Shown here piece after piece: positions 4,310-55,093 of a DNA stretch of 64,000 nucleotides. The position numbers and the translations under genes were made by a program. Source of the stretch: Dehalococcoidia bacterium (lineage in GTDB: Bacteria > Chloroflexota > Dehalococcoidia > Lucifugimonadales > SAR202-VII-2); assembly GCA_965263165.1 (NCBI GenBank), contig OZ253584.1:1138401-1202400 (forward strand), read 5' to 3'. Numbering within the stretch: position 1 is the first letter of the stretch; the number at the start of each line of letters is the position of its first letter. The notes beneath the pieces are model-generated. The model did no database searches. It was not told the DNA's origin and worked only from the letters and a program-made list of their open reading frames with translations.

Positions 4310-5266
4310 TTAGATGGGTGGCTTGCTGCCTGCCCCGTCCCGGTAGGCCTCCAGGGCCTCTCTGGAGCTCCTGAGGATGGCCAGTCCAAGGGCATTCTTG
4401 ATTCTGTCGTTCGAGGCTACCCACGGATACCGGATAAAGTCAATACCGGCGCCGGGGGCGTCGGCGACCTTGGACAGCCCCACACCCCATAGCAGGCTGG
4501 TCGCTGGGTAGAGCATCCAGCTTGGGATGGGCACAAGGCGCTTGCCCAAGATGTGCGCCACCTCCGACAGCGACACCGTTCCATCGCCTGTTAGGTTGTA
4601 CACTCCTGGGACCCGTTCCGTGATGCACCTGGCCATGATGTCAGCCAAGTCATCCTCATGGATGAACTGGAGAGGCGGGTCCGATCCGGGTATGCGAGGG
4701 AAGAACGGCTTGCTGAACCATCCTTGCACGGCGCTGCCCCCGCCGGGCCCGACCACGGGGCAACCCCTGAGCAGCGTGAGCGACACCGCCGGCGTCTCAT
4801 TGGCGAACCGGCGGGCCATGGAGTCCCCCTCCGCCTTATCGTGCGAGTAGGGGAACCGCGCGTTGGGCATCAGCGGGGAGTCCTCTGTGAACAGGGGGGG
4901 ATTCTCCGGGTGCGCCCCGTAGGCTGCTGTGCTGCTGAACCACACAACGTGCTTGACCGAAGAGTCCGAGCAGGCTTCCACCACCCGTTGCGCTCCCCCT
5001 ATGTTGACGCGCCGGGCGCGAGCCCGGCCCCAGCGGGTCGGCGCCAGGACGAAGGCTAGGTGGACAACGGTGTCGATGCCCCACCGGGAGAGGTCGTCGG
5101 CCAGCCTCTGAAGGATGTCGCTGGTGACGGCCTGAAGCTTGGGATGCTCAATGCGAGGAGGCTTCCGGTCCACGCCCACCACGAGCTCGACGTCAGGATG
5201 ATCGAGGAGCCGGGGCAAGAGCAGGTTGGCGATGTAGCCGGACGAGCCGGTGACCAGAATTCGCAT
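4310..5266 (-). CDS. NAD-dependent epimerase/dehydratase (extended SDR)
   Basis: ILVTGSSGYIA, SSTAAYG and YSHDK (YxxxK). Confidence 0.9.
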   Translation of the reverse strand: MRILVTGSSGYIANLLLPRLLDHPDVELVVGVDRKPPRIEHPKLQAVTSDILQRLADDLSRWGIDTVVHLAFVLAPTRWGRARARRVNIGGAQRVVEACSDSSVKHVVWFSSTAAYGAHPENPPLFTEDSPLMPNARFPYSHDKAEGDSMARRFANETPAVSLTLLRGCPVVGPGGGSAVQGWFSKPFFPRIPGSDPPLQFIHEDDLADIMARCITERVPGVYNLTGDGTVSLSEVAHILGKRLVPIPSWMLYPATSLLWGVGLSKVADAPGAGIDFIRYPWVASNDRIKNALGLAILRSSREALEAYRDGAGSKPPI

Positions 5267-5329
5267 GGCGGAAGTTGAGACCCTCGCCTAACCGGGGCCG
5301 GTTATCCGTCCCGCCGCTGCGGAGGTCCC

Positions 5330-5670
5330 GTTTGTGCGTAAAGGCGTGACTGCCAGTGAAGGAGCGGCGCCAGCGGCGTAGCTAATCCGGCACACCCGGG
5401 CGTCACAGTTGCCACGCCTCCGGCACGGTTCGCGACGCCTTTGTCCACTTTCCAGCCGGCCCCCGAAGCGAGGTGTCCCGTAGCCGTCGCGTAGCCGGGA
5501 CCTTGCGTCGCACAAGGAATGGGCCGCCAGGCCACTGCTTGACCATCTGCTTTTCCGCCTTCCATATGCCCTATACCCTGCAACTCGCTGCATCCCGGCT
5601 CCAAGAGAGAGTGGGCCGCTGGCCCACTGCTTGACGATACTCTAGCACAAATGTCCTTATTCTGCAAGAG
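5330..5670 (-). repeat. Solo divergent copy (U5) of the repeated promoter cassette
   Basis: Minus strand TTGCAG-17bp-TAGAGT followed by GTGGGCCAGCGGCCC...TTGGAGCC, matching the leaders at 18504-18585 and 53720-53802. Confidence 0.65.
5639..5667 (-). promoter_or_regulatory. Sigma70 promoter with LexA-like box (cassette U5)
   Basis: TTGCAG aataaGGACatttGTGC TAGAGT; 17 bp spacer and extended -10 TG. Confidence 0.55.
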
Positions 5671-5704
5671 GGAGGGGGCCGGCGGCGGCTTGTTCAGAGC
5701 ATCC

Positions 5705-5887
5705 CTAGGCCGGCGCGAACTTCGCGGGATCCTGCTCGAATTGGCGCTTGCAGCCCGGAGCGCAGAAGTAGTAGGTGCTGCCCTGGTGTTCCGAGGTTCC
5801 GCCCGGGGGCTTGGCGGTGTCGACCTCCATATGGCAAATAGGGTCGATGGCAATGGTCGTTTTCTTGGAGAAGAATGGGATGCGCAT
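5705..5887 (-). CDS. YHS domain protein
   Basis: IDPICHMEVD...YYFCAPGCKRQFEQDP. Confidence 0.9.
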   Translation of the reverse strand: MRIPFFSKKTTIAIDPICHMEVDTAKPPGGTSEHQGSTYYFCAPGCKRQFEQDPAKFAPA

Positions 5888-14371: not shown

Positions 14372-15625
14372 ATGGCACCCACGCGGGAATACCGCGACCC
14401 GCTCTATGGGCTCATCGAAGTAGATGAGTTGGAGCAGCGTATCATCGAGACCCCTGCGTTCCAGAGACTCCGTGGCATCGTCCAGCTGGGTACAACACCT
14501 CTCGTCTATCCCTCAGGCAATCATACCAGATTCGAACACGCTCTTGGCACGATGGATACCTCCAGTGAGTTGTACGATCGACTCACCCGCAGACAAGATA
14601 CTCTTCGCGTTCTAGGCTGGAACAGTGATACTCGCGAACTCAATAGACGGCTGCTACGGTTGGCAGCTCTTTTACACGATATTGGGCACGCACCATTTTC
14701 CCACGCTACAGAAGAATTATTTCCTAACTCCAAGGAGCATGAAGATTATAGCTACGACCTTATAACCCAACTGGAGATAGGCGATGCCATAGATCAGACA
14801 TTGGGTGCCGGATCGAAGGACCGAGTAGCAGGCATTGCCATTAACAAAGCTCAGACGGCAGACGACAGCTTCCTATCAGAGCTACTGGCAGGCGACATAG
14901 GGACGGACCGTGTTGATTATCTCGCTAGAGACTCCCATCATCTAGGGGTTGCGTACGGAACATTCGATCGGCATCGCCTGTTCAACACGCTCCATGTACG
15001 ACGCAACGAGACAACACAGGGTCCCGAATTGGCAATCACCGAGGGGGGGCTGCACGCGGTGGAAGGCTTCCTCCTCGCCCGGTACTTCATGTTCGTTGAT
15101 GTCTACTTCCACCGTACGCGCCGCATTCTGGACATCCACCTTACCGAATTCATCTGCGATCTTCTCCCTAGCAACACCTACCCCGCCACGGTTGAGGAGT
15201 TTCTCAAGTGGGACGATACCGCCATTCTTCGGGCCCTCCAGGAGCGTCGCTCGGAGTCGCTCGCGCGGCGCGTCATAGCACGAGAGTTCTTTCGTGAATG
15301 CTACTCCACGGTTGATCATCCCGAAAGAGCCGCGTTGGTTGGATTTAAATTGCTGTCGGAAGCCATTCGCGATAAGTTCGGCGATGACAATCTCCGCTTC
15401 GACTCCGCCGAGAAGGCTCCGTATCGCTATAATACTCCGCCGATCCTTGTTTCAACGAGTGCGGGATTTAGCTCGCTAGTCAACTGTTCTCCTCTAATCC
15501 AGAATCTGAACCGCATTAGGAAAAACCGCATCTATGTAAAAAATGATCTCCGGCAAGAAGCACAGAAATTCTGCCAGAAATGGTGGAAGGCCAATGTTGA
15601 TGACATACTCTTGGGGGTGACGTGA
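14372..15625 (+). CDS. HD-domain dNTP triphosphohydrolase-like protein (SAMHD1/YwfO type)
   Basis: QRLRGIVQLG, HTRFEHALG, LLHDIGHAPFSH, DRVDYLARD and MFVDVYFH motifs. Confidence 0.88.
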   Translation: MAPTREYRDPLYGLIEVDELEQRIIETPAFQRLRGIVQLGTTPLVYPSGNHTRFEHALGTMDTSSELYDRLTRRQDTLRVLGWNSDTRELNRRLLRLAALLHDIGHAPFSHATEELFPNSKEHEDYSYDLITQLEIGDAIDQTLGAGSKDRVAGIAINKAQTADDSFLSELLAGDIGTDRVDYLARDSHHLGVAYGTFDRHRLFNTLHVRRNETTQGPELAITEGGLHAVEGFLLARYFMFVDVYFHRTRRILDIHLTEFICDLLPSNTYPATVEEFLKWDDTAILRALQERRSESLARRVIAREFFRECYSTVDHPERAALVGFKLLSEAIRDKFGDDNLRFDSAEKAPYRYNTPPILVSTSAGFSSLVNCSPLIQNLNRIRKNRIYVKNDLRQEAQKFCQKWWKANVDDILLGVT

Positions 15626-16567: not shown

Positions 16568-17758
16568 GGAGACCTTTGCGTAACCAAGGCAGGTGGGGCG
16601 AGAATGTAGCCATCCGAGGAAGTCCGGAGAGTACAGATGCATCGTCAGATGGGTCAGACGTCACTAGCAGAATCGCTGTTGCCGCAGTCGCTTGGAAGAA
16701 ACGAGCGTCTGGAGCGAATCGGCGAGGAGGTGGACTGGGAACGATTCGCCTTTCTGGTGGGGGGAGTCTACTCGGCCGATGAAGGGAGACCCAGTTATCC
16801 TCCGTTGATGATGGTCAAGGTACTGCTGCTGGAGCAGTGGTACAACCTGTCTGACCCGCAGATGGAAGAGGCACTCGGAGACCGCATATCGTTCCGTCGC
16901 TTTGTGGGGCTTGGGCTTCAGGACGAGACCCCTGACTACTCGACGATCAGCCGCTTTCGGACCGAGCTGGTCAAGCATGGGCTGAGTGAGGAGCTTTTCA
17001 AGGAGCTGGAAGTCCAACTGGACAAGCGCGGACTGGTATTGAAGGAGGGGACGTTGATGGACGCCACGCTGGTAGAGGCCCAAGTGCGTCGTCCACCCCT
17101 CGCTGCGGGACGTGGCGCCAAGAGTGCTACCGACCCCGATGCTGACTGGACGCGCCACCGTGGGAGTCGGGCGCACTTCGGCTACAAGGTGCATCTGGGT
17201 GTGGATGCAGGGACGGGGCTGGTGCGCAAGGGGATGCTGACGCCGGCCAAGGTCTATGAGAGCGAGGTGGCCGATGCGCTGGTGAGCGGTGACGAGGTGG
17301 CGGTGTACGGTGACCGCGCCTATGAGTCCAACAGGCGGCGTCGGTGGCTCACGTCTCATGGGATCAACGATCGGATCATGCACCGTTCCCACAAGCATCA
17401 ACCGGAGTTACCGCATTGGCAGAAGCGACGCAACGCGTTGATACGTCCGCGGCGGGCGTTGGTGGAGAAGGTCTTCGGCACCCTCAAGCGCAGCTACGGC
17501 TATAGCCGTGTCCGCTACCGGGGTTTGGGACGCAACGCCGTGGAGATGTGGTTCAAGCTGATGGCCTACAACTTGCGGAGGATGACCAAGTTGGCTGATT
17601 GCGCTGCCTGAACCACTGTGTAGGAGCAGTCCCGGGGGAGCCGCCACACCGGGACGCGCAGTGGGTGGCCTGAACCGCCCTGGATGCGGTTCCGTGAACT
17701 TCTTTTCCGTGCTGGCGGACCAATCGAAGGCTACACCCAGAGTTGCTCAAAGGTCTCC
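16568..17758 (+). mobile_element. IS5-family (IS1106-like ends) insertion sequence inserted in a REP loop
   Basis: IRs GGAGACCTTTG(C/A)G(T/C)AAC; target duplication GACTAC at 16562-16567 and 17759-17764 (or 8 bp CGACTACG if the IR starts one base inward). Confidence 0.92.
16637..17611 (+). CDS. IS5-family DDE transposase
   Basis: GRPSYP, LEQWYNLSDPQMEE, PDYSTISRFR, MDATLV, GDRAY and VEKVFGTLK motifs. Confidence 0.96.
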   Translation: MHRQMGQTSLAESLLPQSLGRNERLERIGEEVDWERFAFLVGGVYSADEGRPSYPPLMMVKVLLLEQWYNLSDPQMEEALGDRISFRRFVGLGLQDETPDYSTISRFRTELVKHGLSEELFKELEVQLDKRGLVLKEGTLMDATLVEAQVRRPPLAAGRGAKSATDPDADWTRHRGSRAHFGYKVHLGVDAGTGLVRKGMLTPAKVYESEVADALVSGDEVAVYGDRAYESNRRRRWLTSHGINDRIMHRSHKHQPELPHWQKRRNALIRPRRALVEKVFGTLKRSYGYSRVRYRGLGRNAVEMWFKLMAYNLRRMTKLADCAA

Positions 17759-17921
17759 GACTACGGGGGCAGGTTAGGAAGGAGATCCCAATCCCTGTAC
17801 CCAAAAACGTCGGAGGGTGGATCGGGTGGGACAACGGCGCAGGCCAAGCCGGACCCTTCGCTGAAGGACGACGCAGGCCACAACAAGACCATCCGCCCAG
17901 GAAGAACCCCGCCAACCCCCC

Positions 17922-17950
17922 TTGCAAAATGCGAACGATTGTGCTAGAGT
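17922..17950 (+). promoter_or_regulatory. Sigma70 promoter with LexA-like box (U1)
   Basis: TTGCAA aatgcGAACgattGTGC TAGAGT. Confidence 0.65.
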
Positions 17951-18503
17951 GCCCCCATAAACCCTGCCGCATACAGGTGGACTGGGGGAATCCATAGCGA
18001 GACCCCCTGGGCAGGAGGGTCTGGGAACGTTCCCCAGGCCCGCATCCACCCGAGGAAGGTTGGGACCCGAGCGCATGCCGTTGTATGGCACAGGCTCCTT
18101 GGAGCCATCCGGCTCAGCGACGGATGCGCGACGGCTAACGACGGATCCGCGACGGATGCGCGACGGCTTAACGACGGGTAAACGACGGATAGACGACGGC
18201 TCCGTGCCTGAAACCCCGAAATTCGGCTGAAAAACTTAACAACATACAATCAAAGACTGTCCCCGTACCCGTACCCGGGGGCAGGCTGGGAAGCGTCCCG
18301 ATGCGCCAACGCAAGCTCGCGACCGACGCCGCGCAGGGTGCAGGGGGCGCAGCCCCCGCCGGGGGTACAGGGGGAGTCCCCCTGTACCCCAAAACGTTGG
18401 AGGGTGGGCAGGTGGGACAACGGCGTAGGCCAAAGCAGACCCTCCGCCGAAGGAGGGCGCAAGCCAAAACAAATCCATCCGCCCAGGTTATGCCCCACCC
18501 CCA

Positions 18504-18532
18504 TTGCGAAATCAGAACAAATGTGCTATAGT
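18504..18532 (+). promoter_or_regulatory. Sigma70 promoter with LexA-like box (U2)
   Basis: TTGCGA aatcaGAACaaatGTGC TATAGT. Confidence 0.65.
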
Positions 18533-19039
18533 ACCCATGAAATGGGCCACCGGCCCGCTTCTCTTCCTTGGAGCCTGCCGCATACATCTTGGACAGGGGG
18601 CTAACCATAGAGAAGCCTCCTGTGGCGGCGCATCTGGGAAACGTCCCTCAGACCCACGACCGTCCGAAGAAAGGCGAGACCAGTGCCAATGCCGTTTCCA
18701 GACAAGCCCCTTGCAGCCGCGCGGCTCCGCCGCGGTTCGCTGCGCTTCAGCGACAACTGCACGACGGTCCATCACAGCTCGCTGACGGCTCCTGACGCCT
18801 TGGTGACGCCATTGTGACGGCTCCGTGCCTGGAAACCCCCGAAATCCGGCAGAGAAATATTACACATACAATCAAAGGAACAACATTCAATCAAAGGCGG
18901 CGCCGCATCTGTCCCCAAAGGCCCTACCCCGGGAACTGCCGGCGGCGGGCGGCCCACTCCACCACGTCCCTTGCGCGGGACGGGTCGAAGCTTTCCTCCA
19001 CCCACGTGAAGATGGAGACCGTGGACGGACGCTTCCGCC

Positions 19040-43130: not shown

Positions 43131-44536
43131 GGGTTCGCGTCCCGCAAATTAGTGATTGGTTGAAAGCTGCCGTCGCTGCCAATCGCGGTCAGAAAGACCG
43201 CGTCCGAGCCTTGGTTGTCGCCGTCCCCATAGCGAAGCTCGAACCCATCGATGTCGACGACATCGACGCCGCGCAGGCTGGCCAAGAAGCTCTCCCTGTC
43301 TACTTCCCGGCCGCACCTTTCCAGGCCGGCGATGGCCAAACGGCCAGCGAGGTAACCCTCGAAGGAGACGAAACCTGGAACAGCGTCGGCCTCGTAAGCA
43401 GATAGCGCGCGCAGGTAGGTTTGGACAACGGGGAGGGAGTCGTCCTTGGGGGATGGCACCACCTGGGTAACGAAGACCCCCGCCCCATCGGGGCCCAACT
43501 CTTGGGCCAATGCGTTGCTTCCCACGAAAGAGACGGTCATAAAGATGGGGTCCATGCCGATCTGCAGTGACCAGGAGACCACACTTGCAACCGGCTCGTA
43601 TGCTCCGATCATTATGACCGCCTCCGGGTCCCCTTCTCTCAGATCTAACACAGCCGTCCTGACCGCCGTCGTGTTGCGCGGATACACCCCAATTGCCACG
43701 GGCTCCATACCGCGCCTGTCCAGGGCAAGCTGCACTCCAAGGAATCCGGCGCGTCCAAAGGAGTCGTCCTGGTACAGCACGGCAATCCTCGCGACGCCAA
43801 GGTCTCCTATCAAGCGCGCCACCATCTCCTCGGTCTCCTGGTAGTAGGAAGCTCGCAGGTTCACCACGTAGTCCATCTCTTCGCCCCGCAGAAACTCAGC
43901 GCCGGTGAAGGGGGCGATGTAGGGGACATTGGCGTCCTCGGTGATGGGGGTGGCGGACCGGGACGTTGGCGTGCCTACGGCGCCAATTAGGGCAAAGACC
44001 CTTTCCTCTTCGATGAGGCTGATGGTGTTGGCGATAGCGGACTCTGGCTCATAGGCATCATCGACGGACGAGAGTTCCAGCAGCCGGCCATGGACGCCGC
44101 CGCGTTGATTGGCTTCGTAGAAAGCTGCCTCAATCCCAAGCCGCATGCCCTTGCCTAGCTCCTGGGCAGGGCCGCTGAAGGCAGCGGACTGGCCGAAGAG
44201 GATGCGGTCGTTGGTGATGCCGTGCTGCGCCACCCCATTGCTGGTGGGCGTGCCGCTGGCCTGGGGCCCGTTGCCGTTGTCCACGCCACTGCTTTCCGTT
44301 GGGCTCTGAGGAGTGGAGGTGTTGCATGCCAGCAAACACACGGAGAACGCGAGGGCAAGGATTAGCCAGCCCCGTCTCGGGATCGGGGGGGTGGGTTTGA
44401 TTGTTTGTGGGTCGCGTGCGGTTTTTTGTTGGGGGGAGGGATTAGCTTCGGGCGGCGCGTGGAGGATGCTCCGTCGCGGGGATGGATGGGCTTTAACAGA
44501 TAGGGCCGGTGGGTTTTGATTGTTTGTGGGTTGCAT
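43127..44536 (-). CDS. Type 1 periplasmic binding lipoprotein (LivJ/Leu-binding family); true start probably downstream of 44536
   Basis: Lipobox LLAC, ILFGQSAAFSGP, DDAYEP, NLRASY, YQDDSFG and FEGYLAG motifs; overlaps kinase start. Confidence 0.85.
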   Translation of the reverse strand: MQPTNNQNPPALSVKAHPSPRRSILHAPPEANPSPQQKTARDPQTIKPTPPIPRRGWLILALAFSVCLLACNTSTPQSPTESSGVDNGNGPQASGTPTSNGVAQHGITNDRILFGQSAAFSGPAQELGKGMRLGIEAAFYEANQRGGVHGRLLELSSVDDAYEPESAIANTISLIEEERVFALIGAVGTPTSRSATPITEDANVPYIAPFTGAEFLRGEEMDYVVNLRASYYQETEEMVARLIGDLGVARIAVLYQDDSFGRAGFLGVQLALDRRGMEPVAIGVYPRNTTAVRTAVLDLREGDPEAVIMIGAYEPVASVVSWSLQIGMDPIFMTVSFVGSNALAQELGPDGAGVFVTQVVPSPKDDSLPVVQTYLRALSAYEADAVPGFVSFEGYLAGRLAIAGLERCGREVDRESFLASLRGVDVVDIDGFELRYGDGDNQGSDAVFLTAIGSDGSFQPITNLRDANP

Positions 44537-44560
44537 GCGTTTTTTGCTGGGGGGTTGGCA
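44395..44560 (-). repeat. Two imperfect direct repeats of about 45 bp ending in ACAAACAATCAAA
   Basis: CCCCCCAGCAAAAAACGCATGCAACCCACAAACAATCAAA and CCCCCCAACAAAAAACCGCACGCGACCCACAAACAATCAAA. Confidence 0.7.
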
Positions 44561-44980
44561 TCAGGAGGCCCTGTGGGTTACGAGGGTCAGGTGGTTCTTG
44601 CCGTGCTCGCGGCGGTAGCGGAGGTCGTCCATGAGGGTGCGGACGAGATAGACGCCGAGGCCGCCGATGCGTCTATCCTCGATGGAGGCGTCGAGGTCTG
44701 GGGTCGGGGCGTCATGGAGGGGATCGAAGGGGGGCCCGCCGTCGATGATTTCGATGGTGACGGCGTCATCGTCGGAGGTGAGGACGATATCGATGTCGCA
44801 GGGGCCGCCATCGTAGCCGTAGTCCATGATGTTGAGGCCGAGCTCTTCGAGGGCGAGGTTGACGCGGAAGAGGAGGGCGTCGGGCCAACGTTCGCGTCTG
44901 CCGAGGTCCTCCACGGCGTCGGTGATGGCGGCCAACTCGTCGCGGCCGGAGGTGAGTTTCAGGGCAACGGTTGCGGCCAT
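44561..44980 (-). CDS. RsbW-like anti-sigma factor/Ser kinase (HATPase_c_2)
   Basis: LALEELGLNIMDYGY, IIDGGPPFDP and RRIGGLGVYLVRTLMD motifs. Confidence 0.92.
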   Translation of the reverse strand: MAATVALKLTSGRDELAAITDAVEDLGRRERWPDALLFRVNLALEELGLNIMDYGYDGGPCDIDIVLTSDDDAVTIEIIDGGPPFDPLHDAPTPDLDASIEDRRIGGLGVYLVRTLMDDLRYRREHGKNHLTLVTHRAS

Positions 44981-53380: not shown

Positions 53381-53773
53381 CCCGGCCTCAGCCTCGTTCT
53401 TTGATTGTTTGTGACTCTTTGATTGTTTGTGCGCCTGCTATTTCTTCTCCCGTAGGCGTGGAGCCGTTACAAAGGCGTTACAAGCCGTTACAAAGCTGTT
53501 ACGAGTCGTTACGGAGCCGTTACCAGTCGTTACTAGTCGTTACGGAGCCGTTACCAATCCTGCGAGCCGTTACGGAGTTGGGCGGCTCTAAAGAGCCTGT
53601 GCCTTACAGCGGCATTCTCTTCGGTCCCAGCCATCCTCGGAGGGTCTTGCCCCTTGGGGTGTTCCCTCAGCGCCCCTGCCACAGGGGGACTCTCCATGGT
53701 GAGCCCCCAATACCTACGTTATGCGGCAGGCTCCGAGAAAGAGAAGCGGGCCTGGGCCCACTTCATTGGGGGC

Positions 53774-53802
53774 ACTATAGCACACCCGTTCGTATTTTGC
53801 AA
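53774..53802 (-). promoter_or_regulatory. Sigma70 promoter with LexA-like box (U3)
   Basis: TTGCAA aatacGAACgggtGTGC TATAGT. Confidence 0.65.
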
Positions 53803-54322
53803 TGGGGTGATGGCATAACCTGGGCGGATGGATTTGTTTTGGCTTGCGCCCTCCTTCGGCGGAGGGTCTGCTTTGGCCTACGCCGTTGTCCCACCTGCCC
53901 ACCCTCCAACGTTTTGGGGTACAGGGGGACTCCCCCTGTACCCCCGGCGGGGGCTGCGCCCCCTGCACCCTGCGCGGCGTCGGTCGCGAGCTTGCGTTGG
54001 CGCATCGGGACGCTTCCCAGCCTGCCCCCGGGTACGGGTACGGGGACAGTCTTTGATTGTATGTTGTTAAGTTTTTCAGCCGAATTTCGGGGTTTCAGGC
54101 ACGGAGCCGTCGTTTACCCGTCGTTTACCCGTCGTTAGCCGTCGCGCATCCGTCGCTGAGCCGGATGGCTCCAGGGAGCCTGTGCCATACAACGGCAGTC
54201 GGTCGGGTCCCAACCTTCCTCGGGTGGATGCGGGCCTGGGGAACGTTCCCAGACCCTCCTGCCCAGGGGGTCTCGCTATGGATTCCCCCAGTCCACCTGT
54301 ATGCGGCAGGGTTTATAGGGAT

Positions 54323-54351
54323 ACTCTAGCACAATCGTTCGTATTTTGCAA
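54323..54351 (-). promoter_or_regulatory. Sigma70 promoter with LexA-like box (U4)
   Basis: TTGCAA aatacGAACgattGTGC TAGAGT. Confidence 0.65.
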
Positions 54352-55093
54352 TAGGGGGTGGCGCTTCCTGGACGGAGGGGCTTGTTGCGGCCAGCGCCCT
54401 GGTTCAACGGAGGGTCTGGCTTGGCCTGCGCCGCTATCCCGCCCGCTCCGCCCTCCGGCGTTTTTAGAAACAGGGGAACTCCCCCTGTACCCCCAGCGGG
54501 GGCTGCGCCCCCTGCACCCCGCTTGGGGAACGGAGGTGAGGCGTAGCCAGGGGAAGAGGGATAGGGACCGTTGCGAAGCGCGATCTAGCGCGGTCACAGC
54601 GCGGTGATAGCCCAGTCAAGCGCGGTCATAGCCCCGACAGAACGGAGGTGAGGCGTTACCGTTGCGAAGCCGAGGTGTGATGCGGTGATAGCCCAGTCAA
54701 GCGCGGTCATAGCCCCGACAGCCGTTAGGCCGAGGTGTGATGGATTGTTCCCCGCCCGCGCCGCCCTCCGACGTTTCTCAGAACAGGGGCAGCCCCTGTA
54801 ACCGGCCGCCAAACGCCCACGGTAAGTGTAGTACACTCAGGGGGCTGGTCAATCTGGCAACAGGGACAACCTGCAACGCTGACCTCGTGTTCAATGAAGC
54901 GCGTTCGGCTGACCCCGTGCACATCGAGCTGGCCGGACGAATCATGCAAGACCTGCTCGGCCTTCGTGAAGATGCCGTGTCCGCCGTGGGCAGGCTACGG
55001 ATACTGTGCTGGCCAGCGACCCGCCTGTTCATGGGTCCAAAGAGTCAGCGTAAGTGGCTTAAGATGCCAAGCAGATAGTTGAGGCGTGAGTGA

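What the first reader, a model, noticed from the sequence alone, without database searches (positions are those of the whole stretch)
17783..18900. Multi-copy 550-600 bp cassette with a LexA-like-box promoter: candidate undescribed SOS-responsive element
Seen: at least four near-complete units (U1, U2 here; U3, U4 at 53395-54540) and one solo remnant (5330-5670). The modules occur in the same order: GC-rich hairpin pair (GGGGGCGCAGCCCCC, CAGGGGGAGTCCCCCTG; missing before U1), conserved spacer of about 130 bp, TTGC(A/G)(A/G)-17bp-TA(T/G)AGT promoter with G(A/G)AC-N4-GTGC in the spacer in all five, a leader of about 170 nt, a 10-11 bp phased microrepeat array, and ACAATCAAA (followed by a REP hairpin in U1, U3 and U4). 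No transposase or long ORF is inside. Established: Firmicute/Chloroflexi-type LexA binds GAAC-N4-GTTC; tandem elements of about 500 bp in E. coli (LDRs) encode type I TA systems, and tisB/istR is SOS-induced. Inference: a DNA-damage-induced structured RNA or micropeptide locus, or a non-autonomous mobile element. Promoter conservation across divergent copies suggests selection on expression.
Basis: partly seen in the sequence, partly recalled or inferred. Interest (0 to 1): 0.8.

Follow-up and report, generated by a model that had tools for sequence, protein, structure and literature searches.

The report
Dispersed SOS-promoter terminase-leader repeat family
The cassette is real, but it is one of about 120 gene-less copies of the control region that heads phage-derived DNA-packaging (terminase) genes in this Dehalococcoidia genome: a strong promoter with a DNA-damage (LexA-type) switch followed by a helically phased row of short protein-docking repeats. 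This suggests an undescribed SOS-triggered DNA-packaging system.

Summary
**Observation: confirmed and enlarged.** They belong to a family of about 121 promoter-bearing copies in this 3.09-Mb genome. A same-genus species has about as many, and a genome of another family in the same order has 106 promoter-pattern matches.

**LexA-like box: supported by comparison.**
- GAAC-N4-GTGC fused to the -10 hexamer is the layout of recA leaders across the order.
- The same layout precedes a uvrD/pcrA-like gene in four relatives.
- lexA, a Y-family polymerase gene and a radical-SAM repair-type gene carry canonical GAAC-N4-GTTC boxes.

The element is the leader of a small zinc-ribbon gene plus large-terminase (terL) operon.
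- Three intact operons in the genome each carry a full copy upstream.
- About 20 further copies keep truncated starts of the small gene.
- Portal and protease-capsid genes sit behind the same promoter type.

**Arrays.**
- Units are spaced only 10 or 11 bp apart, with a median of 8 units.
- They fall into four pure sequence classes.
- Each class is matched by an inverted site in the tail.

**Not supported.** RNA covariation is absent, there is no Rfam match, and there is no conserved small ORF.

**Best reading.** An SOS-repressed promoter plus a pac-like docking platform. What the orphan copies do is unproven.

The parts
17793..17921 (+). U1: remnant of the upstream REP-like module (spacer part only; the hairpin pair is cut off by the IS5-type element ending near 17700-17790)
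   Evidence: 84% identical to 18411-18487; DDE_Tnp_1 transposase gene 16637-17611 directly upstream
17922..17950 (+). U1 promoter: -35 TTGCAA 17922-17927, LexA-type box GAAC-GATT-GTGC 17933-17944, -10 TAGAGT 17945-17950 (TGTG = extended -10)
   Evidence: the same layout at recA of G075 and in other recA leaders
17957..18109 (+). U1 leader, short variant (lacks the 5' hairpin)
   Evidence: subfamily of about 8 copies at 85-92% identity
18110..18202 (+). U1 phased array, GCGACGG / AACGACGG units, spacing 10-11
   Evidence: TRF period 11/22/33
18203..18255 (+). U1 tail (CCCCGAAATTCGGCTGAAAAACTTAAC...ACAATCAAAG)
   Evidence: 110 of 130 genomic ACAATCAAA motifs are element ends
18343..18390 (+). 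U2 REP-like hairpin pair
   Evidence: 14-nt perfect arms 18362-18375 / 18377-18390
18504..18532 (+). U2 promoter: TTGCGA, box GAAC-AAAT-GTGC 18515-18526, -10 TATAGT 18527-18532
18539..18749 (+). U2 leader, long variant with 5' hairpin 18543-18557 followed by CUUCUCUUCC
18750..18829 (+). U2 phased array (GTGACG / CTGACG units)
18830..18896 (+). U2 tail with duplicated CAATCAAAG (18869, 18888)
53399..53460 (-). U3 tail with duplicated CAAACAATCAAAG
53461..53577 (-). U3 phased array, nine pure GTAACG units
53578..53773 (-). U3 leader, long variant
   Evidence: MFE -89.2 kcal/mol, z -1.88
53774..53802 (-). U3 promoter: TTGCAA 53797-53802, box GAAC-GGGT-GTGC 53780-53791, -10 TATAGT 53774-53779
53916..53963 (-). 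U3 REP-like hairpin pair
54051..54101 (-). U4 tail
54102..54157 (-). U4 phased array (GCGACGG / AACGACGG units)
54158..54322 (-). U4 leader, short variant (close relative of U1)
54323..54351 (-). U4 promoter: TTGCAA, box GAAC-GATT-GTGC 54329-54340, -10 TAGAGT 54323-54328
54470..54512 (-). U4 REP-like hairpin pair
5330..5667 (-). Worn solo copy: TTGCAG 5662-5667, box GGAC-ATTT-GTGC 5645-5656, -10 TAGAGT 5639-5644, then a decayed leader. It lies about 370 nt upstream of, and co-oriented with, an epimerase gene (4310-5266).
54560..54760 (-). Promoter-less array remnant upstream of U4: two 81-nt repeats made of 11-nt (A/G)TGACCGCGCT-like units
   Evidence: (D7)

Best explanation
U1-U4 are gene-less ('orphan') copies of the 5' control region of a phage-derived DNA-packaging operon. 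That operon is a small zinc-ribbon protein in the small-terminase position followed by a large terminase.

**Shown**
- The family has about 121 copies.
- Three copies head intact operons. About 20 others keep truncated starts of the small gene.
- The promoter is near-consensus sigma-70 with an extended -10.
- Its spacer holds GAAC-N4-GTGC, the form that recA leaders carry throughout this order.
- The array is 6-11 units spaced only 10 or 11 bp apart, about 65-115 bp in all.
- The arrays fall into four pure classes. The tail carries an inverted or palindromic copy of the same class.

**Inferred mechanism**
- LexA sits on the box, which overlaps the -10 region, and keeps every copy silent until DNA damage.
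- The array works as DNA. It is a one-face docking platform that wraps an oligomer of the small terminase-like protein, as in the SPP1/SF6 pac region, which also spans the promoters and the start of terS. The palindromic tail site would be the dimer or operator site.
- The leader RNA is then the 5' UTR of the operon. In orphans it is a by-product or an accessory.
- Orphans are held at orthologous sites in two species and keep intact promoters. So they are probably used, as extra docking or entry sites or as sinks for the docking protein and LexA, rather than being pure debris. This last step is the least secure.
For: - **Copy number and modular anatomy:**
- **Promoter constraint:**
- **LexA comparators:** lexA's own box CGAACATTCGTTCC; recA GAACGAATGTGC; recA leaders in 9 genomes; uvrD/pcrA-like gene in 4 genomes; canonical boxes at a Y-family-polymerase-like gene and a radical-SAM SplB-like gene, both identified by eye from the translations; LexA gene present.
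- **Terminase link:**
  - G001's single copy leads to TerL (Pfam Terminase_6N 5e-28, Terminase_6C 1e-11).
  - G003's single copy leads to a TerS-like HTH protein (PHROG terS families).
  - Three intact 429-aa terL genes lie in this genome, each 400-500 nt downstream of a full element copy and preceded by the small zinc-ribbon ORF.
  - About 20 copies carry terS fragments cut at different points.
  - Portal (PF04860, 8.5e-59) and protease plus HK97-type capsid lie behind the same promoter type. A head-tail adaptor and a tail-terminator-like gene follow the capsid gene.
- **Array geometry:** spacing 10 (145 cases) or 11 (264 cases), mean 10.65; median 8 units; TRF periods 10/11/21/22/32/33.
- **Class purity and class-matched inverted tail site:**
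- **Orthologous positions in a sister species:** element identity 89-97%, flanks 89-97%, and arrays differ by whole 11-nt units.
- **Literature:** the SPP1 pac site holds three sets of direct repeats spanning the promoters and the start of terS. HTH motifs on the TerS ring lie about one DNA turn apart, and about 100 bp would wrap it (PMC4737164).
Against: - No binding, cleavage or induction data exist.
- The small protein matches no TerS family in Pfam or PHROGs; only its zinc-ribbon part finds weak hits. Its AlphaFold model is unusable (pLDDT 56). Its role rests on gene position alone.
- The second half-site is GTGC, not GTTC. TGTG is also what an extended -10 needs, so part of the 'box' is explained by the promoter itself.
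- G033 has 106 promoter-pattern matches but no TerL of this type.
- None of 63 viral contigs with a related TerL has this promoter, and only one has a phased array.
- No tail genes were found near the head genes, apart from the tail-terminator-like gene.
- A mean spacing of 10.65 does not separate B-DNA (10.5) from an RNA reading.
- The array-tail complementarity would also fit RNA pairing.
- Nine same-strand tandem pairs are not what entry sites would need.
Confidence: 0.55

Rival explanations
1. An SOS-induced non-coding RNA family that acts as RNA. About 120 promoters launch a folded 5' domain plus a repeat tail. The tail would titrate or scaffold an RNA-binding protein (CsrB-like sponge logic), or it would act in cis or trans on terminase mRNA, for example by antitermination or translation control.
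For: - Every copy keeps a strong promoter and a conserved transcript start, ATCCCCATGA, even in another family of the order.
- A 5' hairpin followed by a U/C-rich run, and a thermodynamically plausible three-way junction.
- The P4 arm keeps a hairpin with different sequences in different subfamilies.
- The tail site is complementary to the array unit.
- Metatranscriptome contigs cover the 5' domain of related copies.
Against: - RNAalifold on 34 diverse copies gives a covariation term of -0.44, with compensatory change in only 2 of 26 pairs. Most variation breaks pairs on one side.
- Fold z-score is only -1.88.
- There is no Rfam match.
- The 180-nt domain is absent from the G033, G093 and G121 versions.
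- The metatranscriptome contigs include the promoter itself, so they may be DNA or read-through.
- A strict 10/11 spacing has no obvious RNA rationale.
Confidence: 0.2
2. A selfish, non-autonomous repeat with no present host function. The leader of a once-mobile terminase cassette was copied around the genome, perhaps through recombination between the REP-like modules that flank it, and is now slowly decaying.
For: - High copy number in G000, G002 and G033, but only one copy in same-genus G001 and 0-3 copies in about 390 other genomes of the order. This is a burst-like distribution.
- Truncated terS fragments and worn copies exist.
- Copies lie in REP-rich intergenic DNA in no fixed relation to neighbouring genes.
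- One of five G002 loci has no counterpart in G000.
Against: - There are no terminal inverted repeats, no associated transposase and no target duplications.
- Copies sit at orthologous sites in two species and are as conserved as the mostly coding flanks.
- Promoter hexamers and GAAC are intact in about 75-80% of all copies, although median pairwise identity is 81% and the adjacent N3 positions vary freely.
Confidence: 0.15
3. An iteron-type replication or partition site: direct repeats plus an inverted operator bound by an initiator- or ParR-like protein.
For: Direct units plus a class-matched palindromic site near the start of the downstream gene resemble plasmid iteron-plus-operator logic. 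The comparison is from my own knowledge.
Against: About 120 chromosomal copies. No Rep or Par gene is nearby. The only linked genes are terminase-type.
Confidence: 0.03
4. An SOS-induced type I toxin-antitoxin or micropeptide locus (LDR or tisB/istR-like).
For: An ATG is conserved near the transcript start.
Against: Indels of 1-2 nt in the hairpin loop shift the frame between copies, and some copies have AAG, AGG or GTG instead of ATG. No hydrophobic ORF is conserved. The short variant (U1, U4) lacks that stretch altogether.
Confidence: 0.02

Closest known systems
pac region of Bacillus phages SPP1/SF6 and its small terminase G1P (PMC4737164)
   Same: Sets of short direct repeats that span the promoter(s) and lie just before the small-terminase gene. 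The repeat span of about 100 bp, with about one helical turn between sites, fits DNA wrapped round a ring of DNA-binding domains.
   Different: - Here there are 6-11 near-identical units instead of three small box sets, and four sequence classes.
- A LexA-type operator lies inside the promoter.
- The linked small protein has a zinc-ribbon-like N-terminus and matches no TerS family.
- Above all, about 120 gene-less copies lie on the host chromosome.
Gene transfer agents (RcGTA-type) and SOS-linked GTA control (PMC6854486, PMC6473078)
   Same: Phage head and packaging genes are inherited with the chromosome and split over several loci. There is a link to LexA/SOS regulation.
   Different: - Known GTAs package DNA without defined recognition sites, and their TerS lacks sequence specificity.
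- Here a dispersed, class-coded site family exists.
- Particle production, tail genes and host-DNA packaging are all unshown.
LexA operators of the GAAC-N4-GTTC (Cheo-box) type (own knowledge of Bacillus and Chloroflexi LexA)
   Same: A left half-site GAAC, a 4-nt AT-rich spacer, and a position overlapping the -10 region. The same form occurs at recA and uvrD-like genes of this order.
   Different: The right half-site is GTGC rather than GTTC and doubles as the TRTG extended -10. About 100 operators belong to a single repeat family.
REP/BIME and MITE-type intergenic repeats
   Same: High copy number, intergenic location, modular build with GC-rich palindromes, and mosaic 5' ends.
   Different: The unit carries a selected promoter and a phased array. 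It has no terminal inverted repeats and derives from the leader of a protein-coding operon.
Protein-sponge RNAs with repeated motifs (CsrB/RsmY; own knowledge)
   Same: A promoter-driven transcript with many copies of a short motif.
   Different: The motif spacing is fixed at 10-11 nt. The motif is not presented in hairpin loops. There is no covariation, and about 120 genes rather than one to three.

Membership tests
LexA (SOS) operator, GAAC-N4-GTTC type | Inverted half-sites GAAC / GTTC separated by 4 nt | tested here: inconclusive
   GAAC-N4-GTGC in 4 of 5 window copies and 96 of 101 anchored genomic copies. This is one mismatch in the right half-site, which overlaps the extended -10 TGTG.
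LexA (SOS) operator, GAAC-N4-GTTC type | The same motif upstream of core SOS genes of the same lineage | tested here: met
   recA leaders of 9 genomes carry GAAC-N4-GT[G/A/C]C. The G317 site, GAAC-ATAT-GTAT, is weaker and was read by eye. Five genomes have GTGC, and in G075 the box lies inside TTGACA...TATAAT. A uvrD/pcrA-like gene in 4 genomes also has it. lexA, a Y-family-polymerase-like gene and a radical-SAM gene have canonical boxes.
LexA (SOS) operator, GAAC-N4-GTTC type | LexA encoded in the genome | tested here: met
   TIGR00498 hit, 171.5 bits, above the cut-off, at C1:2909365-2909994
LexA (SOS) operator, GAAC-N4-GTTC type | LexA binding and damage induction | not testable with these tools
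   Uncultured organism. The one metatranscriptome run found was uninformative.
pac/cos-type small-terminase recognition region | Lies at the promoter and start of a terS-terL operon | tested here: met
   Met for three genomic copies (C1:140254, 2951957, 3020323) and for the single copies of G001 and G003. The four window copies are orphans without the genes.
pac/cos-type small-terminase recognition region | Repeated short sites phased by about one helical turn over about 100 bp | tested here: met
   Spacing 10 or 11 only, mean 10.65, median 8 units
pac/cos-type small-terminase recognition region | The adjacent small protein is a small terminase | tested here: inconclusive
   By position only: it lies immediately upstream of terL. 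No Pfam hit, and only zinc-ribbon-level PHROG hits. The family holds 46 unnamed proteins. AF2 pLDDT is 56. The G003 counterpart does hit PHROG terS families.
pac/cos-type small-terminase recognition region | Binding by TerS and cleavage by TerL nearby | not testable with these tools
   Needs biochemistry or sequencing of particle DNA
Gene transfer agent | Complete head-tail gene set maintained in the chromosome | tested here: inconclusive
   Found: terL x3, small ORF x3, portal, prohead protease, HK97-type capsid, head-tail adaptor and a tail-terminator-like gene. No tail tube, tape-measure or fibre genes were located. The search was not exhaustive.
Gene transfer agent | Particles carry host DNA | not testable with these tools
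   No particle or virome data could be tied to this genome.
Structured non-coding RNA family | Match to a curated RNA family | tested here: not met
   No Rfam hit at gathering score. The best sub-threshold hit is 21 bits against a cut-off of 58.6.
Structured non-coding RNA family | Compensatory base-pair changes | tested here: not met
   2 of 26 pairs, covariation term -0.44 kcal/mol, on 34 copies that are less than 90% identical. Similar on 89 copies.
Type I toxin-antitoxin (LDR, tisB/istR) | Conserved short hydrophobic ORF | tested here: not met
   The frame after the ATG is not conserved, and the short variant lacks it.
MITE / non-autonomous transposon | Terminal inverted repeats and target-site duplications | tested here: not met
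   Only local REP palindromes were found. No terminal inverted repeats across U2 or across U3-U4. 5' ends are mosaic.
MITE / non-autonomous transposon | Presence/absence polymorphism between close genomes | tested here: inconclusive
   Four of five distinct G002 loci examined in detail are syntenic with a G000 copy, and one is not. G001, of the same genus, has a single copy.

The most novel reading that the evidence does not exclude
The chromosome is studded with about 120 SOS-licensed, class-coded entry sites for a host-owned, phage-derived packaging machine. After DNA damage, LexA release would fire the terminase operons and all the orphan promoters. Small-subunit paralogues would each dock on arrays of their own 'address' class (GTAACG, GTTACG, GTGACG, GCGACG). 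Terminase would then start directional packaging of host DNA about every 25 kb. This would be an independently evolved gene-transfer-agent-like system with defined pac sites, in Dehalococcoidia.
Probability: 0.2. Interest if true: 0.9.

Novelty: new variant of a known kind. Interest (0 to 1): 0.72.

Why it matters
Known gene transfer agents and generalized transducers pick up host DNA without dedicated sites. A genome carrying about 120 conserved, SOS-gated, pac-like arrays in four sequence classes would be the first case of a host chromosome marked out for packaging. Failing that, it would be a large decoy or sink network for a packaging protein and for LexA.

The finding also roughly triples the number of LexA-type operators expected in a bacterial genome. 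That would reshape how the SOS response is titrated in this lineage.

The organisms are uncultured Dehalococcoidia; earlier notes of this scan place them near the abundant SAR202 group. A damage-triggered DNA-exchange device there would therefore matter for how these populations evolve.

Even on the dullest reading, the family shows how a gene's control region can spread without any transposon hallmarks.

Tried and rejected
- **Rfam.** The whole window at gathering score and the U1-U2 region at E <= 10 gave nothing usable.
- **Transcription evidence.** Only one metatranscriptome run holds related copies. Its short contigs include the promoter, so they neither prove nor place a transcript start.
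- **Partner gene.** All-against-all clustering of 466 proteins within 2.5 kb of copies gave only large metabolic paralogue families and IS transposases. Orientation of the neighbouring genes is mixed.
- **RNA structure.** MAFFT plus RNAalifold on 102, 89 and 34 copies gave a plausible three-way junction but no covariation.
- **Terminal inverted repeats.** None.
- **Replication-strand bias.** 54 of 121, p = 0.28. Spacing CV is 0.79.
- **Structure of the small protein.** AF2 pLDDT 56, so no fold search was run.
- **Viral contigs.** 63 loci with TerL at 49-61% identity were scanned. None has the LexA-type promoter. One has an 11-nt GTCAC-core array 1.2 kb upstream of terL.
- **ACAATCAAAG as the far end of a full cassette.** It is not present after terL. 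REP modules follow instead.
- **Promoter at C1:2480058.** It drives two ORFs with no Pfam match, not tail genes.
Full report
**1. The observation**

The region 17783-18900 holds two tandem units on the + strand, and 53395-54540 holds two on the - strand. A worn copy lies at 5330-5667.

- The composite G(A/G)AC-N4-GTGC-TA(T/G)AGT occurs exactly five times in the window, against none in shuffles.
- The closing motif CAATCAAAG occurs six times, against 0.39 expected.
- TRF reports arrays of period 11/21/22/31/33 in all four units.
- U1 lacks the hairpin pair because an IS5-type transposase gene (16637-17611; DDE_Tnp_1 2.9e-28) lies directly upstream.
- U1-U2 face a convergent dehydrogenase gene. 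U4-U3 face the convergent ETF-alpha gene.

**2. Scale**

The window lies in a single 3.09-Mb contig of 63.8% G+C.

- BLASTN and iterated nhmmer find 121 copies that span the promoter and leader. The flanking hairpin-plus-spacer module reaches about 190 copies.
- Median pairwise identity of the leader is 81%. The median nearest neighbour is 94%.
- Copies are intergenic. The downstream gene is opposed in 73 of 121 cases and co-oriented in 48.
- No protein family is consistently adjacent.
- There is no replication-strand bias (54 of 121).
- Mean spacing is 25.6 kb with a CV of 0.79. There are nine same-strand tandem pairs.

**3. The promoter and the LexA question**

Among the 101 copies that could be anchored, the -35 is TTGCAA in 89. 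The -10 is TATAGT, TATAAT or TAGAGT in 100. GAAC is present in 96. The three bases after GAAC vary freely. TGTG-C-TATAGT is an extended -10 of the TRTG type (my own knowledge), so the right half of the 'box' is partly a promoter element. The left half has no such excuse.

The genome encodes LexA, and several genes carry related boxes:
- lexA carries CGAAC-ATTC-GTTCC after its -10.
- A gene whose translation looks like a Y-family polymerase has TTGACA-AAAGAACATACGTTCTC-CATCAT.
- A gene whose translation looks like a radical-SAM SplB-like repair enzyme has AGAAC-GAAT-GTTCT.
- recA carries GGAAC-GAAT-GTGCT, the element's own variant.

Across the order, recA leaders read as follows:

| Genome | recA leader site |
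|---|---|
| G002 | GAAC-GAAT-GTGC |
| G001 | GAAC-AGAT-GTGC |
| G121 | GAAC-ATTA-GTGC |
| G093 | GAAC-ATTA-GTAC |
| G033 | GAAC-TTTT-GTCC, inside TTGACA...TATACT |
| G075 | TTGACA-AAGCGAACATCAGTGC-TATAAT |
| G003 | GTAC-GGAC-GTTC (the reverse orientation of GAAC-N4-GTAC) |
| G317 | GAAC-ATAT-GTAT (read by eye; the pattern scan did not list it) |

Four genomes of another family have AGAAC-TAAT-GTGC-TATAGT in front of a uvrD/pcrA-like gene. This is an inference from comparison, not a binding result.

**4. What the unit belongs to**

The pattern GAACNNNTGTGCTANAGT was scanned over 401 genomes of the order:

| Genome(s) | Matches |
|---|---|
| This genome (G000) | 84 |
| G002 (same genus) | 58 |
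| G033 (another family) | 106 |
| G001 (same genus) | 1 |
| About 390 other genomes | 0-3 each |

- G001's single copy is the promoter and 5' hairpin followed by a 76-aa ORF and a large terminase (Terminase_6N 5e-28, Terminase_6C 1.3e-11).
- G003's copy (promoter, hairpin, CCCGAAATC tail motif) precedes a TerS-like HTH protein.
- This genome has three intact 429-aa terL genes, at 141035, 2952917 and 3021318.
- Each terL is preceded by a small ORF with a zinc-ribbon-like N-terminus (164, 150 and 122 aa).
- Each also has a complete element copy 400-500 nt upstream.
- tblastn with the small ORFs finds fragments of 13 to 138 residues behind about 20 further copies, cut at different points.
- A portal gene (PF04860, 8.5e-59) and a prohead-protease/HK97-capsid/adaptor/tail-terminator-like cluster lie behind promoters of the same type at 144221 and 194340.

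So the element is the leader of a phage-derived packaging operon, and U1-U4 are orphans.

**5. The array**

- Successive ACG/ACA cores are 10 nt (145 cases) or 11 nt (264 cases) apart, with one case of 12. The mean is 10.65.
- Chains have a median of 8 units, with an interquartile range of 6-10 and a maximum of 11.
- TRF periods are 10, 11, 21, 22, 32 and 33.
- Arrays fall into four classes: (G)TTACG in 17 copies, (G)CGACG in 17, (G)TAACG in 14 and (G)TGACG in 9. Median within-array purity is 1.0.
- The tail carries the same unit inverted (Fisher 6e-5, uncorrected for shared descent):
  - 15 of 17 GTAACG arrays are followed by GTTAC, often as the palindrome GTAACGTTAC.
  - 5 of 5 GTTACG arrays are followed by GTAAC (TACGCGTAAC).
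  - There are no crossed cases.
- G033 shows the same rule with GTGTCGC/GCGACAC and GTGTCAG/CTGACAC, in 5 of 7 copies.
- Units next to the small gene's start are (T)GTCAC, the unit type of the G033, G093 and G121 arrays.
- The geometry matches what is described for SPP1/SF6. There the direct repeats span the promoters and the start of terS, the HTH motifs on the ring lie one DNA turn apart, and about 100 bp would wrap the ring (PMC4737164).

**6. RNA or DNA?**

- The long-variant leader folds into a 5' hairpin, a three-way junction and two further hairpins.
- 34 diverse copies give a covariation term of -0.44 kcal/mol, and only 2 of 26 pairs show compensatory change.
- The U3 leader has a z-score of -1.88.
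- The 180-nt domain is missing from the versions in other families.
- Rfam finds nothing.
- One metatranscriptome run has short contigs on related copies, but they include the promoter.

I therefore favour a DNA-level role for the array. The transcript would be the operon's 5' UTR or an accessory.

**7. Age and constraint**

- Four of five distinct G002 loci examined in detail are syntenic with G000 copies.
- Element identity is 89-97%, against 89-97% for the mostly coding flanks.
- Arrays differ by whole 11-nt units.
- In one pair the upstream hairpin module is present in only one species, and similarity begins just before the -35. This puts the 5' edge of the conserved unit there.
- There are no terminal inverted repeats.
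- Complete cassettes are bounded by REP-type modules on both sides.
- How the family spread is unexplained.

**8. Verdict**

- The LexA reading is supported by comparison.
- The toxin and micropeptide reading is rejected.
- The structured-RNA reading is unsupported.
- The mobile-element reading is only partly apt.
- The best explanation is an SOS-repressed promoter plus a pac-like docking array, detached from terminase genes and kept in about 120 copies.
- Whether the orphans are working packaging entry sites remains open. I put that at about 0.2.

Earlier notes of this scan on this and related genomes reached similar views. I re-derived the terminase link, the copy number and the array classes independently. 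I added the recA/uvrD comparison, the class-matched tail site, the truncated terS series and the ortholog comparison.

Noticed in passing
window 5687-5708 (- strand), and many places elsewhere in the genome: The motif CTAGGGATGCTCTGAACAAGCC begins with a gene's stop codon (here the YHS-domain gene 5705-5887). It recurs in the same position at the ends of at least nine other genes next to element copies.
   Followed up: no
window 44393-44564 (- strand): Two 53-nt repeats 119 nt apart each end in CACAAACAATCAAA, the element's closing motif, without any promoter or array. Similar pairs or triplets of this motif stand alone at about six other intergenic places in the genome.
   Followed up: partly
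window 54560-54760 (- strand): Upstream of U4 lies a promoter-less stretch with an exact 40-nt duplication 81 nt apart, built of 11-nt (A/G)TGACCGCGCT-like units. It looks like an array-only remnant of a further class.
   Followed up: no
window 4310-5667 (- strand): The promoter of the worn solo copy (box GGAC-ATTT-GTGC) lies about 370 nt upstream of, and co-oriented with, an NAD-dependent epimerase gene. It may now serve as that gene's promoter.
   Followed up: no
window 16637-17611: An IS5-type transposase gene (324 aa), one of a nine-member transposase family among the genes flanking element copies (seven of exactly 324 aa). Several copies lie next to, or inside, element copies, for example between the flank and the tandem pair at C1:2453738-2454957, which is uninterrupted in G002.
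   Followed up: partly
window about 15278-15296 (- strand), inside the HD-domain ORF 14372-15625: AGAAC-TCTC-GTGC-TAT, a further LexA-type box with -10-like bases, lies within a coding region. It may be chance.
   Followed up: no
genome C1:194280-194560, 1834020-1834300 and 104090-104340 (outside the window): A second small repeat family with the same promoter type (TTGCGG-AATTGGAAC-N3-TGTGC-TAATGT). It is followed by a 130-nt leader that ends in a classic terminator hairpin with a T-run. The complete copy precedes the prohead protease and capsid genes; the other two are truncated.
   Followed up: partly
L020 (G001:C3, around 207456): The only copy in this same-genus genome has the promoter and 5' hairpin but no array. 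Its small ORF lacks the zinc-ribbon half. So array and zinc ribbon are present or absent together.
   Followed up: partly
L115 790-866 (IMG/VR contig IMGVR_UViG_3300000117_000557): Seven 11-nt GAGTCACACTG / GAGTCATACCG units lie 1.2 kb upstream of a related terL in a low-GC viral contig. It is the only such array among the 63 viral loci scanned.
   Followed up: partly
L017 (G121:C1:1599632-1599649): A promoter of the same type (TTGACA...GAACGTGTGTGCTACAGT), without an array, lies about 930 nt upstream of recA on the same strand. It may drive a gene that precedes recA.
   Followed up: no
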